A stretch of 64,000 bases of DNA from Escherichia coli (GCF_041248615.1 NZ_CP158426.1); one strand, 5' to 3'; shown: positions 31,401 through 43,400, numbered from the stretch's first letter. Numbers are program-made.

Positions 31401-34400
31401 GCGTAAAGCGGACCTGTACGACAAAGTCAGCCAGGCGTTCACCGTCTTCCTGCCGGTACGTTCCGTTGGTGTAATGGGCGATGGTCGTAAGTATGACTGG
31501 GTTGTTTCTCTGCGTGCTGTCGAAACCATCGACTTTATGACCGCACACTGGGCGCACCTGCCGTATGACTTCCTCGGTCGCGTTTCCAACCGCATTATCA
31601 ATGAAGTGAACGGTATTTCCCGCGTGGTGTATGACATCAGCGGCAAGCCGCCAGCTACCATTGAGTGGGAATGATTAACAGCTAACTCATAGCAAATCAT
31701 TCCTATTCAGATGCCAACTCAACCCTCTGTTTTTGCAGAGGGTTTTTGTTTTTATGTATTCATTTCTATTCACTCTACACCATATTTTTCGGCGGTACAG
31801 GTGACGGTATTACCTTAAAGGTATACTCTCATACCGTCATGACAATGGTTTCTATACGGGTGAATTGTGCTTACCGATACAAAATTAAAAAACCTCAAGC
31901 CGCAGGACAAACTGTACAAGGTCTCCGATCGTGACGGGCTGTATGTAGCTGTGCTTACGTCAGGCACGGTCTCGTTTCGCTATGACTACCGTATCAACGG
32001 TCGCCGCGAAACACTGGTAATCGGGCAGTATGGGCGTGACGGTATCAGCCTGGCAGAAGCGCGAGAAGAACTGATTGCTGCAAAGAAGCTGCTTAAAGCA
32101 GGCCAGTCGCCGGCCGCGGCTAAACGTGACGGTATCAAAAAGATTCGTGGTGCCGAGACGTTTGCGGTACATACCGACAGTTATATGAAACACGTCATCC
32201 TGGCTGAAAGTACCCGCGCAATGAAGCAGGCAGTGATCGACCGTGACATACTTCCGGTTCTTGGCAACAAAATGATGGCTGAAATTACCACATCGATGGT
32301 TCGTGATTTGTGTGACCGGATTGTCGAACGCGGTGGTCGGGCAACAGCAGTACAGGCCAGGGAGATCATCAGCAGCGTATACCGTCACGCCAATGACCGT
32401 GGTCATGGTTTGTTTAATCCTGCGGCTGACATTAAACCTTCGTCTATCGCCATATTTAAACCACGAGAGCGAACACTGACACCAGAAGAAATTGGTCTGT
32501 TCTTCCGCACGCTGGATGCCATTGGTGCTATGGGCACTATGAAAATGGCTTTAAAGCTGGTGCTTATCACTATGGTCCGTAAAGGCGAATTCACCAATGC
32601 AACGTGGGATGAAATAGATTTTAAAAAATGGACATGGACAATTCCTTCAGACCGCATGAAGGGAAGTCGGGCGCACGTTATTTACCTGCCTAAACAGGCA
32701 CAGGATATATTAGTCGGGTTGCAGATGTGCGCTGGTGGAAGTGAATATCTGGTTCCTGGTCGTTACAATTTCCGGAAGCCATTATCTAATGCCGCGCTGA
32801 ACTCTCTGATCGACAGAACGGTGAAAATAATAAATGAAGATGGTGAGCATATTCAGGACTTCACCGTACACGATATGCGCCGTACAGCCAGTACGTTGTT
32901 GCATGAGGCTGGTTATCCTTCAGACTGGATTGAAAAGGCTCTGGCACATGAGCAGAAAGGTGTGCGCGCCGTATATAACAAAGCGGAATACGCCAGACAG
33001 CGCGCCTACATGTTGCAGCAGTGGGCCGATATGATTGATTCCTGGATTAACGGGGAGCATACGGATCTGATTCCGTTCTCCCCGTCGAAGTTTGAGAGGT
33101 GGATGGCGGGGGAATAACGTTTAATTATTCTGCTGATTTTCTTCCATCTCGGCTTCTGCTGCCAGTGATTCAATTTTATCTGCGAATATTGCTGACAGTG
33201 TTGCAAATTCAGCATCAGTGACAGCGGGAATTGGAACAAACCTGATCCCGCTGTGTGCAAGCATGTTTGCAGTTTCAAGGCATTTCCTTAAATCTGCTGG
33301 TGATGCCCTGTTCATGCTGCACGCTCCCGCCCCTGGTTGTCTGTTGGTGACAGCGGAGCATTGCTGAATGCATTTGTTAATCTGGCAATATCCAACGCGT
33401 ATCCAGGGTGTAGTTGCACTGCCGGGTCTTCGCACTGATTACCCCAAACATCGAAACCATGAGACGACTGGCGGGCGAACAGTTCAATGCGAGAAACATC
33501 GCCTAACAATTGCACAAGTTTTTCACGAACGATATCTGGTTTTCTTGAATGCTCAAGCCGCGGTGCGGTAAATGACTGAACGATCCCTGCATTAATGCGC
33601 GTAGGTAGTTTTCCCTTTACCGCAAACAGGCAATCTTCACTATTGGCGCGAGTCATGTGCCCCATACCCATAACCAGTTTATCTGGTTGTCGACTACCAC
33701 ATTTTATCCACGTGAAGCCCTTCATCGTCATCAGACGAAATCCCCAGGCTTCAACAACTTTTAGTGCTTCGAGTGGTTGTGTTGGCACCCACCACATGGC
33801 CAACAGACAGTTTTCATCGGCCAAATCCCACACAGGAAGGCGGCAGATATCCATCACACTCATAACCGGATATTTAAAACCGGCACCGCGATTACCATCT
33901 GCGGCTTTGTCCCGGTATACCCAGGGTGGATCTGCATAGATTAGTGTGTATTTCTTAGTCATAAACCACCCCGCAACATCCTATACCGCTATAGTCGCCA
34001 CGGCGAAGGCCGTTACCTTTTGTGATACATTGGTCCCTGCGAACCGCGATCCTTGCACGCTCAACATCACCAGAAGCAACATCCATACACTGAAGCCAAA
34101 GGTGAGCGGCAATGCGGAACTGTCCTTTTTTCTCTCTTTCAATTGCGCGTTTTTCGATCTCTATCGCCGCAGGAGTAACGGCGACAATCTTTGACGGACT
34201 GCGCATTGAAACCTTGTTCATGTGATATTTTTCAAGTCGGCTTAACTTTCTCACTTAATCCAACCCTCTCTGAAAATTAATGCCAGCAGATAAAGCCATG
34301 CTGAAACAGAGGCCAGGAATAAGTACCATCCTGACCATTTGCTCCAGTGCCTTAGCAGCACACTCATGCAGCGTTGCTCACAGGACGATATACACGTTGC

Positions 34401-40400: not shown

Positions 40401-43400
40401 TATCCGGTGATAAAAACCCGAATTGGAAGGGTGGGAAAATCGAAAAGGTTTGTTCCGTATGTGGCAGGCAATATCAGGTTAAGCGAGCCAACTCATCTTC
40501 AAGGTTCTGCTCACTTCAGTGTGTAGGAATTTCACAGCGAGGCAAGACGGTAAATCGGGAACTAAAGCGAGTATTAAAAATATGCTGCGTATGCGGATCT
40601 TCGTTCTCCGTTTTCTTGAGTCATGAGAAGCGTCATAAATGCTGCTCGAAACAGTGTTCCAACATAATGCGTTCTTCTCTGATGAAGGGGGAAGGAAATC
40701 CAAACTGGTCTGGTGGATTATCGAGATTGCCGTATCCGTGGGATTTCCGAGAAACGAGCAAGAGGGTTATTGAGCGAGATGGTTTTACTTGTCAGAACCC
40801 AGGTTGTGATGGAACAGACAAAAGGCTAACAACTCATCACATCAATTACGACAAGCAAGACTGTCGTCAGGAGAACCTTATTTGCCTTTGTTCGAGCTGT
40901 AACTCGAAGGCTAATTTCGGTCGGCATAAGTGGCAAAAGTTTTATGAATCACTGATGAAAAATAGATCGGCATGAATCGACGATCTTTTTAGTTATCAAT
41001 GTAATCAATAAGTTATGCGGATAAGCGAGGGTAAAGATGGAAAGTAATATCAAAGGGTTAGTTGCCGCCGGGCATGAGATGGCTTCGGAACTGAAAGCAG
41101 AATGTGGTGCCGTTGATATGCGTAGTGTGGCAAAGCTGATCAGCGATTTGGCAACGCAACTGGAAGTGCAACTGGTGCGTGCTAATGCGCTGGCCGAAGA
41201 CCAACAGAAAGCGATTGAGTCAATTAAGCAGGCTGATTCGGCTGTTAAGTTGGCACACGAGAAGTTTTCGGCGCTGGCAGCGGAGAATGCAAAGCTGAAG
41301 AAGTTCTGCAAAGACGCTGCATTCGATGCCGATTACGAAGCAGAGCTAGGTATGGAGAGAGGTGGATTCAGTGATGCGCTTAACGAAATCAAAACCCCAG
41401 CCACCGATGCTTTCCTGGCTGAAGTGCGGGCGCAGGGCGTGGATGCTGCTATAGAAGCTGCAAAAAATCTGGTGGCCCAAGAATATGAGTATAAGGATTT
41501 CAAAGCGGCGCAGAGTGATTGCTGTATGCACCCTGGTTCAGACCTGGTAGGGAAGGTTGAAATAACTGAGTGGTTAGTTGACTTTGCTGCCCAGCTTCGC
41601 AAAGGAGGCAACCAGTGACTGGACATGCAGCAATCCTCGACATGTGCTGTGGCAGTCGCATGTTCTGGTTCGATAAGAATGACGACCGGGCGATATTTAG
41701 CGATATCAGAAAGGAAGAGCACACATTGTGTGATGGACGACGGCTGATAATTAGCCCTGACCTGATAGCAGATTTTCGTGCATTACCATTTGCAGACGCA
41801 TCGTTTCCGGTTGTTGTATTCGACCCTCCGCATCTTGAGCGTGTTGGTGATAACGCTTGGATGGGAAAGAAATATGGACGGCTGAATAAAGATACCTGGC
41901 GTGATGATTTGCAGCAGGGATTTAAAGAAGCCTTTCGTGTGTTGTGGCCATACGGCGTTCTGATTTTTAAATGGAATGAAACGCAAATACCTGTTCGCCA
42001 AATATTGGCACTGACCGACAGAAAGCCTGTTATCGGTCAACGAACAGGAAAGGGTGACAAGACCCACTGGATTATTTTTATGAAGGAGGGCAACCAGTGA
42101 GCAAAATTGACTATCAGGCACTGCGTGAAAAGGCAGAGAAAGCAACGTGTGGTGTGTGGTCGCTCGAATATGGAGAGAGCCGATTTGATTGTGATGATGC
42201 GCTAATTCATCGTGACGTTGTTGGATATCTTCCCATTTGCAGAATTGAAGGAGCGCATCCTGAAAGCGGTTTCGATGAAGATTTCCAGATGGAACAGCAG
42301 GCCAATGCTGAATTTATTGCTGCCTTTAATCCAAAGGTTGCTTTGGCACTACTGGATGAACGGAAAAAAAACCAGCAATACATCAAATCCCGCGACCAGG
42401 AGAACGAGGATATTGCGCTAACGGTAGGGAAGCTGCGCGTTGAGCTGGAAGCAGCAAAAAAGCGCATAGCAGAACTGGAGAAAAGCGAAGAGCAACTCAT
42501 CAACGAGCGTGACCATGCTGAGTCTGCTTTAGCTGATATGTACTTTGCAGCAACCGGGGATAGGCCTGAGTGGAGTAACTGGTTCGGCTTTTCAGATGCC
42601 GTCGATGCCGTAGTTGACAGAATTGCTGATTTAGAAGCTAAACAATGCATTGAAGAGATGAGTAAACAAAGTTGCGAAGCTCGGGAGCGTGATTTGTTTG
42701 AATCATGGGTAATGCATTCAATTTGTATTTCCAAATCGACGCTTGAAGGATTGCGCACCGAAACTGGATACCGTAACGCGACCTTATCAGGAACAGACTT
42801 CAACCGCATGTGGGAACAATGGAAATCTATCCGCGCCGCTGGCATTCGCATCAAAGGAGAGTGATATGACCACTATAACCGATAAGAAACAGTATCCCAG
42901 CGAGCAATATCTTAATGAGCTGATCACCAACATAGAGTTTGCTGCAAGGGCACCAGTTGAAGTCGTGAGAGCGATGGCAGCAGAGCTACAGAAGCGGCGC
43001 GAAGCTGATAGTGCAGAACCTGCAAGTAATCATGAAGAGTTGCCGCTTGATTATCTCCAAGGTCAAAAAGATGGTCTTGAATGGGCTGCGCAGCTTGCAG
43101 AAGCAAATCACCCACAAACTGGCGACTGGCTTTACGATGACCCGCTGGAGCTGGCTAAAGCTATCAGAAAAGGTCCTGACATGCCCGAATTCGATGGACC
43201 AACTCCGGTAACTCCGGATGGTTGGATAAGCTGTAGTGAGCGAATGCCCGCTCAAGATGATTGGATTTTAATTTATTCAAAGCACGGCGAGTATATGGCA
43301 GGACAGGTACAAGGGGAATACGTGGAGTTGAGCGACGGCACTTTATCGTGGTTAGGGAACGCCTTGTACTGGATGCCTCTACCGGAACCGCCGCAGGAGG

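What the first reader, a model, noticed from the sequence alone, without database searches (positions are those of the whole stretch)
33312..42100. Two orphan DNA methyltransferases plus an HNH endonuclease in the prophage early regions
An MT-A70-family methylase (DPPW) sits in the leftward early operon and a small Dam-like methylase (DPPH) in the rightward one, with an HNH nuclease two genes upstream of the latter. Neither methylase has a cognate restriction gene, consistent with self-protection against host restriction or epigenetic control of the phage genome. Two methylases of different families in one prophage is unusual enough to test.
Basis: partly seen in the sequence, partly recalled or inferred. 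Interest (0 to 1): 0.45.

Follow-up and report, generated by a model that had tools for sequence, protein, structure and literature searches.

The report
Ordinary prophage methylases plus selfish nuclease

Summary
The window is E. coli NRZ14408. The region is the early-gene block of an intact epsilon15/phiV10-like prophage next to guaA.

All three ORFs are real:
- An MT-A70 methyltransferase with DPPW (33312-33962, minus strand).
- A 161-aa minimal SAM methyltransferase with DPPH (41615-42100, plus strand).
- A 202-aa HNH/HNN nuclease (40367-40975, plus strand), which PGAP leaves unannotated.

- The small enzyme is not Dam-like. It has no significant Pfam hit and only a generic class I SAM-methyltransferase fold. 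It belongs to an uncharacterised phage family, about 50% identical across phages of many phyla.
- Two methylases in one phage is not unusual. Epsilon15 itself has one in each early operon. The two genes occur in 537 and 942 of 5,426 complete E. coli genomes.
- The MT-A70 is 82% identical to phage PA8 gp5. That enzyme is published as a 16S rRNA methyltransferase when bound to PNB-2, which is absent here. Its relative M.EcoGV is reported to methylate GATC.
- The HNH is a rare homing-type insertion (21 genomes) and is unlinked to either methylase.

One new point: in other phages the small methylase gene overlaps the start of an MT-A70 gene, or abuts a C5 DNA methylase gene.

Verdict: low interest; a new member of a known kind.

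The parts
31867..33117 (+). Prophage integrase next to guaA; left end of the epsilon15/phiV10-like prophage
   Evidence: PGAP annotation of the 100% identical record NZ_LT599825.1; collinear with the phiV10 integrase
33121..33315 (-). DUF1382 small protein. Its start overlaps the MT-A70 stop by 4 nt, and a homologue follows the MT-A70 gene in Stx phage PA8
   Evidence: PHROG 292 E 7e-30; 49% identical to PA8 gp4; PGAP coordinates
33312..33962 (-). MT-A70-family N6-adenine methyltransferase (DPPW at residues 11-14); a core gene of the leftward early operon
   Evidence: Pfam PF05063 E 2e-22; PHROG 359 E 3e-120; PADLOC MTase_II E 2e-77; 97% identical to PhiV10p33; 82% identical over residues 1-187 to M.EcoPA8orf6770P
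33955..34254 (-). PerC-family regulator (PGAP start at 34206). Its stop overlaps the MT-A70 start by 8 nt. It occupies the position that PNB-2 holds in Stx phages but is not similar to PNB-2
   Evidence: PHROG 868 E 6e-62; PGAP 'PerC family'; no alignment to PNB-2; PerC lies next to the MT-A70 gene in all 11 full-length hits listed from other E. coli genomes
36966..37550 (-). Repressor-like double-HTH protein. With the cro-like gene at 37705-37935 (plus strand) it marks the divergent early control region
   Evidence: PGAP and phiV10/epsilon15 annotation
40017..40370 (+). DUF1064 (resolvase-like) gene. Its 3' part from about 40170 is a divergent allele that travels with the HNH gene
   Evidence: PHROG 190 E 4e-37. 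DNA is identical to an HNH-less prophage up to 40169, then diverges (about two-thirds identical by eye)
40367..40975 (+). Free-standing HNH (HNN variant) endonuclease with two N-terminal NPNW(K/S)GG plus Zn-ribbon modules; a homing-type insertion not annotated by PGAP
   Evidence: PHROG 1271 E 4e-23; IscB HNH region E 7e-9; conserved catalytic and Cys residues; absent from phiV10 with a precise right junction at the stop codon; present in 21 of 5,426 genomes, all at least 99% identical; the interval carries no annotated gene in the three records checked
41037..41618 (+). Eae-like protein, a backbone gene between the HNH and the small methylase
   Evidence: PGAP 'eae-like domain protein'; PHROG 492
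41615..42100 (+). 161-aa minimal class I SAM-dependent methyltransferase with a DPPH motif; a mobile cassette sitting where phiV10 has an unrelated 74-aa ORF
   Evidence: PHROG 954 E 9e-88; PADLOC MTase_II PDLC03288 E 3e-73 and orphan MTase PDLC03730 E 5e-50; AlphaFold2 pLDDT 94.5; conserved motifs; phiV10 comparison

Best explanation
The interval is the early-gene region of an intact epsilon15/phiV10-like (Uetakevirus) prophage of E. coli NRZ14408, integrated beside guaA. It holds three accessory genes of separate origin.

1. An MT-A70-family adenine-N6 methyltransferase. It is part of the genus backbone in the leftward operon, translationally coupled to a PerC-family gene upstream and a DUF1382 gene downstream.
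2. A 161-aa minimal SAM-dependent amino-methyltransferase. It is a widely travelling cassette dropped into the rightward operon.
3. A free-standing HNH nuclease. It arrived as a homing-type cassette together with a divergent 3' half of the neighbouring DUF1064 gene.

Most likely mechanism (inferred, not shown): after induction or infection both methylases are made from the early operons and methylate exocyclic amino groups of bases in replicating phage DNA. For the MT-A70 the target would be N6-adenine, probably at GATC as reported for M.EcoGV. For the small enzyme the site and base are unknown. This would give broad protection against restriction in new hosts. The HNH promotes only its own spread.

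Shown here: gene identity, motif conservation, distribution, junctions and independence of the three genes.

Inferred: the substrates.
For: - Identity and context: 100% match to NZ_LT599825.1, and collinear with phiV10 and epsilon15.
- The catalytic motifs of both methylases are conserved. In the 82%-identical PA8 enzyme, DPPW-to-APPA abolishes function (PMC10810198).
- M.EcoGV, described in that paper as highly similar to the PA8 enzyme, is reported to methylate GATC in vivo.
- By sequence, the best solved relatives of the MT-A70 are chains deposited as 'MT-a70 family protein' (E 2.5e-13), ahead of METTL3 (E 4e-6). From memory only, these are ciliate DNA 6mA enzymes; this was not checked.
- The small methylase matches PADLOC Type II and orphan methyltransferase profiles.
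- It sits in the replication/recombination module of temperate phages from many phyla.
- It directly abuts C5 DNA methylases in L134 and in Bacteroides phage BS-TP2.
- Its 248-aa long forms carry a C-terminal module shared with other phage proteins annotated as DNA methyltransferases.
- No restriction gene is annotated in the prophage.
- HNH: precise presence/absence polymorphism and a flanking divergent tract. It occurs without the small methylase.
Against: - No member of the 161-aa family has a demonstrated substrate, as far as I could find.
- Its fold and profile neighbours are generic class I methyltransferases. The neighbours that I recall (from memory, not checked here) as carrying a (D/N)PP motif include RNA m2G and m6A enzymes (Trm11, TrmN, RsmC, TrmM) as well as M.TaqI.
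- It has no recognisable target-recognition domain.
- Conservation of about 50% identity from E. coli to Streptococcus, Porphyromonas and Vibrio phages is unusual for a sequence-specific DNA methylase. It hints at a universal substrate.
- For the MT-A70, purified PA8 enzyme had near-background activity on dam-minus DNA, and with PNB-2 it preferred 16S rRNA by more than 13-fold.
- GATC is not depleted in the prophage (observed/expected 0.96), and the host species has its own Dam (my knowledge; Dam is listed among the MTases of other E. coli strains). A GATC methylase would therefore add little in E. coli.
Confidence: 0.55

Rival explanations
1. The MT-A70 enzyme is mainly an RNA methyltransferase, like M.EcoPA8orf6770P. 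It would modify host 16S rRNA and so tune translation and prophage induction. Substrate choice would come from a small co-translated partner, here perhaps the PerC-family protein that sits where PNB-2 sits in Stx phages.
For: - 82% identity of the catalytic core to the PA8 enzyme.
- Published 1:1 complex with PNB-2 and a preference for 16S rRNA (PMC10810198).
- The PNB-2/MT-A70 pair is conserved in Klebsiella phage RothC even though that MT-A70 is only 47% identical to this one.
- The PerC stop overlaps the MT-A70 start by 8 nt, and PerC lies beside the MT-A70 gene in the sampled E. coli genomes, and within one or two small genes of it in epsilon15 and a Klebsiella phage.
- PerC is basic (pI 9.8).
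Against: - No PNB-2 homologue exists anywhere in the window, and PerC is unrelated to PNB-2.
- The C-terminal tail that the authors proposed as the PNB-2 contact differs here.
- Close MT-A70 homologues occur with no such partner, after NinB in Erwinia phage Eho59 and after a 44-aa ORF in phage BUCT709. In the Klebsiella phage and in epsilon15 other small genes separate PerC from the methylase. The synteny may therefore be backbone order only.
- The rRNA claim rests on a SAM-consumption assay, and no modified base was identified.
Confidence: 0.2
2. The two methyltransferases are a functional pair. They would act on the same substrate or as a complex, and are merely separated in this prophage.
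For: - In 8 of 77 related viral loci the small methylase's stop codon overlaps the MT-A70 start codon (ATGA or GTGA).
- This is seen in two MT-A70 clades, about 80% and about 42% identical to this one.
- The gene order there is [PerC or PNB-2], a DUF1317-like small ORF, the small methylase, then MT-A70.
- MT-A70 enzymes are reported typically to work as heteromers (statement in PMC10810198).
Against: - The small methylase has at least 20 different downstream neighbours among the same loci, and Ea22-like genes are the commonest.
- 942 genomes carry it against 537 with this MT-A70 allele.
- It also abuts C5 methylases. That fits clustering of anti-restriction genes in hot spots rather than a specific partnership.
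- The sequence upstream of the small methylase is similar in both clades, so a single insertion spread by recombination could explain the adjacency.
- Here the genes are 7.7 kb apart on opposite strands.
Confidence: 0.1
3. The HNH nuclease is the restriction partner of one of the methylases, or a terminase-associated HNH needed for DNA packaging, rather than a selfish element.
For: - HNH-type restriction enzymes and packaging-associated HNH proteins exist (my background knowledge).
- The gene lies two genes upstream of the small methylase.
- It shows weak similarity to the ZorE HNH of the Zorya defence system.
Against: - It is present in only 21 of 5,426 genomes, against 942 with the methylase.
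- It is found in prophages that lack the methylase.
- phiV10, an isolated phage of the same genus, lacks it, and epsilon15 has no such gene annotated in the corresponding region.
- It is about 3 kb from the terminase genes, with unrelated genes in between.
- It has the precise insertion junction and flanking divergent tract typical of homing genes.
Confidence: 0.03

Closest known systems
PhiV10p33 and epsilon15 gp29 ('adenine methylase', MT-A70 family) of the genus Uetakevirus
   Same: Same gene in the same position: after the PerC-like activator and before the integrase in the leftward operon. 97% identical to the phiV10 protein.
   Different: Nothing material. I found no functional data for these phage proteins in the literature searched.
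M.EcoPA8orf6770P (Stx2a phage PA8 gp5) with PNB-2, and its relative M.EcoGV
   Same: 82% identical catalytic core with the same DPPW motif. A DUF1382 homologue follows the gene in both. Both lie in the integrase-proximal leftward region.
   Different: PNB-2 is absent, and a PerC-family gene takes its place. The C-terminal 29 residues are unrelated. The published activities conflict: 16S rRNA with PNB-2 against GATC DNA in vivo for M.EcoGV. Neither was tested for this allele.
PHROG 954 / PADLOC MTase_II PDLC03288: small phage 'class I SAM-dependent methyltransferases'
   Same: Full-length match. Same 150-160-aa core and the same motifs (LDxCCGS, DFRxLPF, VVFDPPH, FKW) as homologues in Streptococcus T12, Lactobacillus A2, Vibrio, Porphyromonas and other phages.
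   Different: This is the short form. About a fifth of the closest relatives listed are about 248 aa, with an extra C-terminal module shared with other phage proteins annotated as DNA methyltransferases.
Dam-type methylases (E. coli/T4 Dam and the small phage Dam family, M.EcoVT2Dam and HP1 Dam)
   Same: An orphan, phage-borne, small enzyme with a (D)PP(aromatic/H) motif after strand 4.
   Different: No Pfam Dam or D12 match. The nearest profiles are Methyltransf_11/25-like. Specificity is unknown.
Free-standing HNH homing endonucleases of phages
   Same: HNH/HNN core with a CxxC zinc site and N-terminal zinc-ribbon modules likely to bind DNA. Presence/absence polymorphism at one intergenic site. 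The linked flank is divergent.
   Different: Cleavage activity and target were not tested. The family is small (138 proteins) and nearly unannotated.

Membership tests
MT-A70 family (Pfam PF05063) | Significant full-length match to the family profile | tested here: met
   PF05063 E 2e-22, model positions 1-172 of 172
MT-A70 family (Pfam PF05063) | Catalytic DPPW motif near the N-terminus (beta-class order) | tested here: met
   DPPW at residues 11-14, aligned to the DPPW of solved MT-A70 proteins. P11 and W13 are invariant in 7 phage homologues
M.EcoPA8orf6770P/PNB-2 rRNA methyltransferase holoenzyme | Orthologous catalytic subunit | tested here: met
   82% identity over residues 1-187
M.EcoPA8orf6770P/PNB-2 rRNA methyltransferase holoenzyme | Adjacent co-transcribed PNB-2 subunit | tested here: not met
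   tblastn with PNB-2 finds nothing in the 64-kb window. The upstream gene is PerC-family and unrelated
M.EcoPA8orf6770P/PNB-2 rRNA methyltransferase holoenzyme | C-terminal tail proposed to contact PNB-2 | tested here: not met
   Residues 188-216 do not align with the PA8 tail
M.EcoPA8orf6770P/PNB-2 rRNA methyltransferase holoenzyme | Preference for 16S rRNA as substrate | not testable with these tools
   Needs biochemistry
Dam-like DNA adenine methylases | Match to a Dam-type Pfam profile (MethyltransfD12 PF02086 or phage Dam PF05869; accessions from memory) | tested here: not met
   The Pfam scan of the 161-aa protein returns only Methyltransf_25 and Methyltransf_11 at E above 1
Dam-like DNA adenine methylases | GATC-specific N6-adenine methylation | not testable with these tools
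   No experimental data found for any member of the 161-aa family
Amino-methyltransferases (N6-A, N4-C or N2-G) of the class I SAM fold | Rossmann-like SAM fold with motif I, an acidic residue at the end of strand 2, and (D/N/S)PP(Y/F/W/H) after strand 4 | tested here: met
Sequence-specific DNA methyltransferase (small enzyme) | Recognisable target-recognition domain | tested here: not met
   The 161 residues are taken up by the catalytic core. Only the 248-aa relatives carry an extra C-terminal module
Restriction-modification system | Cognate restriction endonuclease encoded next to the methylase and co-distributed with it | tested here: not met
   No restriction gene is annotated in the prophage. 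The HNH is in 21 genomes against 942 for the methylase and occurs without it
HNH endonucleases | Beta-beta-alpha-metal core: His-His, Asn, and a terminal His or Asn, with flanking CxxC pairs | tested here: met
   C142, C147, H157, H158, N170, C175, C178, N179 and N183 invariant in 22 homologues. PHROG 1271 E 4e-23. Pfam HNH_3 and HNH only E 0.002 and 0.02
Homing endonuclease genes | Presence/absence polymorphism at a fixed site with precise junctions and a linked divergent flank | tested here: met
   About 507 genomes match the flanks without the insert, and the ones examined have an HNH-less locus; 21 carry the insert. Sequence is identical up to 40169 and again from the stop codon at 40973-40975
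Homing endonuclease genes | Cleavage of the insert-less allele and gene conversion | not testable with these tools
   Needs an in vitro cleavage test and mixed-infection crosses

The most novel reading that the evidence does not exclude
The 161-aa minimal methyltransferase is not a sequence-specific DNA methylase. It would be a phage enzyme with a universal target, such as a conserved rRNA or tRNA nucleotide, or DNA modified non-specifically. It would cooperate with the MT-A70 enzyme, to which it is translationally coupled in other phages, and with small nucleic-acid-binding partners (PNB-2 or PerC). Together they would form a phage module that reprogrammes the host translation apparatus.

Not excluded because:
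- The family has no target-recognition domain.
- It keeps about 50% identity across phages of several bacterial phyla and 37% in an archaeal virus.
- Its structural neighbours include RNA m2G and m6A enzymes.
- Its occasional neighbour's closest studied relative is reported to methylate 16S rRNA.
Probability: 0.08. Interest if true: 0.7.

Novelty: new member of a known kind. Interest (0 to 1): 0.25.

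Why it matters
As found, it matters little. It is a routine accessory-gene set of a common E. coli prophage type.

Three points have some value.
1. Automatic labels such as 'DNA adenine methylase' and 'Dam-like' should be treated with caution here. The only biochemically studied close relative of the MT-A70 enzyme behaves as an rRNA methyltransferase when its partner is present.
2. The 161-aa family is very widespread: 7,492 database clusters, 17% of complete E. coli genomes, and phages of many phyla. It has no known substrate, so one methylome or nucleoside experiment would annotate thousands of genes.
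3. A conserved HNH gene is missed by the annotation in all three genomes checked. This is a small annotation gap.

Tried and rejected
- **Literature on the 161-aa family.** Searches for a characterised member (a DPPH-motif query, a query on phage orphan methylases, and M.EcoGVI) found nothing relevant. From memory, M.EcoGVI (ATGCAT) is the YhdJ type and unrelated.
- **Fang et al. 2012.** The source paper for M.EcoGV is not held, so the GATC claim is second-hand, via PMC10810198 and PMC6602927.
- **M.EcoGIX.** It proved to be a plasmid enzyme and is irrelevant.
- **Partner analysis from viral contigs.** The first scan returned only near-identical phiV10-like loci and was useless for this purpose. 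Annotated phage records were used instead.
- **Modelling a PerC/MT-A70 complex.** Not attempted. The structure tool reports no interface metrics, so a result could not be interpreted.
- **GATC and other motif counts.** No depletion in the prophage, and uninformative.
- **Promoter and terminator scan.** Fewer promoter-like sites than in shuffled sequence, so no basis for a lysogen-active promoter upstream of PerC/MT-A70.
- **HNH as restriction partner or packaging factor.** Rejected on distribution.

Full report
**Where this is.** The 12.3-kb region around the finding is 100% identical to E. coli NRZ14408 (NZ_LT599825.1). guaB and guaA end at window 31674. An integrase at 31867-33117 then opens a prophage that is collinear with Escherichia phage phiV10 and Salmonella phage epsilon15, genus Uetakevirus. 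PGAP annotation of the record shows an intact element of about 39 kb, running past the end of the window to the lysis genes. It contains no restriction endonuclease.

**Observation check.** All three ORFs are real.
- The 216-aa ORF at 33312-33962 (minus strand) matches Pfam MT-A70 end to end (E 2e-22) and PHROG 359 (E 3e-120). It carries DPPW at residues 11-14.
- The 161-aa ORF at 41615-42100 (plus strand) has a strong Shine-Dalgarno sequence. It matches PHROG 954 (E 9e-88) and the PADLOC Type II and orphan methyltransferase profiles (E 3e-73 and 5e-50).
- In an alignment of 72 homologues, 41-79% identical to it, D9, D30, R32, P71, P72, E105, R108, K119 and W120 are invariant. G13, D49, D53, D70 and H73 are nearly so. 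The SAM-binding and DPPH catalytic motifs are therefore under selection.
- The 202-aa ORF at 40367-40975 (plus strand) matches PHROG 1271 HNH endonucleases (E 4e-23) and the HNH region of IscB (E 7e-9).
- 22 homologues of that ORF keep H157-H158, N170, N183, the two CxxC-type pairs around them, and two N-terminal NPNWxGG plus Cys4 modules.

**The MT-A70 enzyme.**
- It is 97% identical to PhiV10p33, and epsilon15 has the same gene in the same place. It is part of the genus backbone.
- This allele, at 95% or more nucleotide identity, is in 537 of 5,426 complete E. coli genomes. In all 11 full-length hits listed from other genomes a PerC-family gene lies beside it.
- The PerC stop overlaps its start by 8 nt. 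Its own stop overlaps the start of a DUF1382 gene by 4 nt.
- The important comparison is with Stx2a phage PA8 gp5 (M.EcoPA8orf6770P), which is 82% identical over residues 1-187.
- Gong, Chakraborty and Koudelka (PMC10810198) report several things about that enzyme. DPPW-to-APPA abolishes its biological effect. The enzyme alone has near-background activity on DNA, including dam-minus DNA. It forms a 1:1 complex with the upstream gene product PNB-2. The complex prefers 16S rRNA.
- The same paper notes that the highly similar M.EcoGV methylated GATC in vivo when over-produced alone. REBASE-based work lists M.EcoGV as a GATC enzyme.
- Here there is no PNB-2 anywhere in the window. The upstream PerC-family protein is unrelated to it, and the C-terminal tail differs.
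- PNB-2 does pair with a much more divergent MT-A70 in Klebsiella phage RothC. Its PNB-2 is 53% identical, and its MT-A70 is 47% identical to this one.
- Other close MT-A70 homologues follow NinB or a 44-aa ORF.
- By sequence, the best solved-structure relatives are chains named 'MT-a70 family protein' (E about 1e-13), ahead of METTL3 (E 4e-6). From memory these are ciliate DNA 6mA enzymes.
- The substrate of this allele is therefore open. DNA adenine methylation is somewhat more likely given the missing partner.

**The 161-aa enzyme.**
- 'Dam-like' is not supported. No Pfam family is significant.
- A confident AlphaFold2 model (pLDDT 94.5) shows a pared-down Rossmann-type methyltransferase core with no extra domain.
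- A profile search of PDB sequences is led by Methyltransf_11-like proteins.
- The family is large: 7,492 clusters at 90% identity and 2,009 at 50%. It is in 942 of 5,426 E. coli genomes.
- It is present at about 50% identity in temperate phages of Streptococcus, Vibrio, Acinetobacter, Porphyromonas, Listeria, Enterococcus and Lactobacillus, and at 37% in a Halorubrum virus. In these phages it always lies in the replication/recombination module.
- In phiV10 the same slot holds an unrelated 74-aa ORF. In O157:H7 strain PA8 the homologue is a pseudogene.
- I found no experimental substrate.

Indirect support for a DNA role:
- It matches the PADLOC Type II and orphan methyltransferase profiles.
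- It directly abuts C5 cytosine methylases in an enterobacterial viral contig and in Bacteroides phage BS-TP2.
- The 248-aa long forms carry a C-terminal module shared with PHROG 111 methylases and other phage proteins annotated as DNA methyltransferases.

Against a DNA role: there is no target-recognition domain, and the cross-phylum conservation is unusual.

**A link between the two methylases?**
- Among 77 viral loci carrying close relatives of the small methylase, 8 have its stop codon overlapping the start codon of an MT-A70 gene.
- This is seen in two MT-A70 clades. The order is [PerC or PNB-2], a DUF1317-like small ORF, the small methylase, then MT-A70.
- This is the one unexpected result. 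However, the same cassette has at least 20 different downstream neighbours.
- The upstream junction is similar in both clades, which is compatible with a single insertion that later spread.
- It also sits next to C5 methylases. I read this as clustering of modification genes in accessory hot spots. A true partnership is a minor rival.

**The HNH gene.**
- It is absent from phiV10. Homology resumes exactly at the stop codon.
- Only 21 of 5,426 genomes have it, all at 99% identity or more.
- About 507 other genomes match only the flanks of this locus. Those listed span about 470 bp there, and strain GF4, the one aligned, has DUF1064 followed directly by the next gene.
- Against an HNH-less prophage, the sequence is identical up to window 40169 (codon 51 of DUF1064). 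It then diverges through the rest of DUF1064 and the whole HNH gene.
- The mobile unit is therefore 'divergent DUF1064 3' part plus HNH'. That is the pattern expected from a homing endonuclease that carries an immune flank.
- It occurs in prophages without the small methylase, so it is neither an R-M partner nor linked to the methylases.
- PGAP leaves the ORF unannotated in all three records inspected.

**Is it unusual?** No.
- Epsilon15 has an MT-A70 methylase in the leftward operon and a C5 methylase in the rightward one.
- Erwinia phage Eho59 has the same two families.
- An Stx2 prophage with both M.EcoGV and M.EcoVT2Dam is published.

**Verdict.** The arrangement is ordinary for this phage genus.
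- Best explanation (0.55): two orphan nucleic-acid amino-methyltransferases made early in lytic growth, most likely modifying phage DNA against restriction, plus an unrelated selfish HNH.
- Main rival (0.2): the MT-A70 is an rRNA methyltransferase like its PA8 relative.
- Interest is about 0.25. It rests on the uncharacterised, very widespread 161-aa family and its occasional coupling to MT-A70 genes.

Noticed in passing
window 40367-40975 (+); also L003 4001-4609 and L004 4001-4609: The conserved 202-aa HNH ORF, with a good ribosome-binding site and conserved catalytic residues, is not annotated by PGAP in any of the three genomes inspected. The family of 138 proteins is almost entirely unnamed.
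   Followed up: yes
window 40170-40975; compare L095 301-706: A mosaic breakpoint lies inside DUF1064 at codon 51. HNH-carrying prophages share a divergent 3' part of DUF1064, and homology to HNH-less prophages resumes exactly at the HNH stop codon. This looks like an immune flank carried with a homing cassette.
   Followed up: yes
L144 9992-10474/10471..., L152 9992-10474/10471..., L163, L148, L151, L157, L170, L175: In other enterobacterial phage contigs the small methylase gene overlaps the start of an MT-A70 gene (ATGA or GTGA). A conserved DUF1317-like ORF of about 50 aa and either PerC or PNB-2 lie upstream.
   Followed up: partly
L134 9974-12594; L179 (Bacteroides phage BS-TP2) 1166-3495: Homologues of the small methylase lie immediately beside large C5 cytosine DNA methylase genes. 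This fits methylase gene clusters in phage early regions.
   Followed up: partly
proteins P0011 and P0110 (248 aa); phage hits H219-H233: Long forms of the small methylase carry a C-terminal module of about 85 aa. The module also occurs on PHROG 111 methylases and on phage proteins annotated as PAPS reductase or N6-adenine methylase. It may be a shared DNA-binding or targeting module.
   Followed up: partly
window 33955-34254 (-): A PerC-family regulator (the family of the EPEC/EHEC virulence activators PerC and Pch) is translationally coupled to the MT-A70 gene. The same synteny holds in phiV10, and, with one or two small genes in between, in epsilon15 and a Klebsiella phage. Whether it regulates host genes or partners the methylase is unknown.
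   Followed up: partly
window 38556-38708 (+), inside the replication-initiator gene 38302-39117: Six iteron-like direct repeats (core CCnAAAAACGGGA, spacing 18-45 nt). Three copies contain a GATC. This is probably the phage replication origin lying within the O-like gene, as in lambda.
   Followed up: no
window 46853-46929 (-): A tRNA-Arg gene is annotated inside the prophage, between the terminase and portal genes.
   Followed up: no
L176 5001-5474 (E. coli PA8 chromosome): In O157:H7 strain PA8 the homologue of the small methylase (93.6% nucleotide identity) is a pseudogene with an internal stop, in a degraded prophage. Other O157 genomes match at the same identity but were not inspected.
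   Followed up: no
window 43407-43688 (+): An ASCH-domain protein (a domain I recall as a putative RNA-binding fold) is encoded downstream in the same rightward operon. An ASCH protein also lies near the PNB-2/MT-A70 pair in Klebsiella phage RothC.
   Followed up: no
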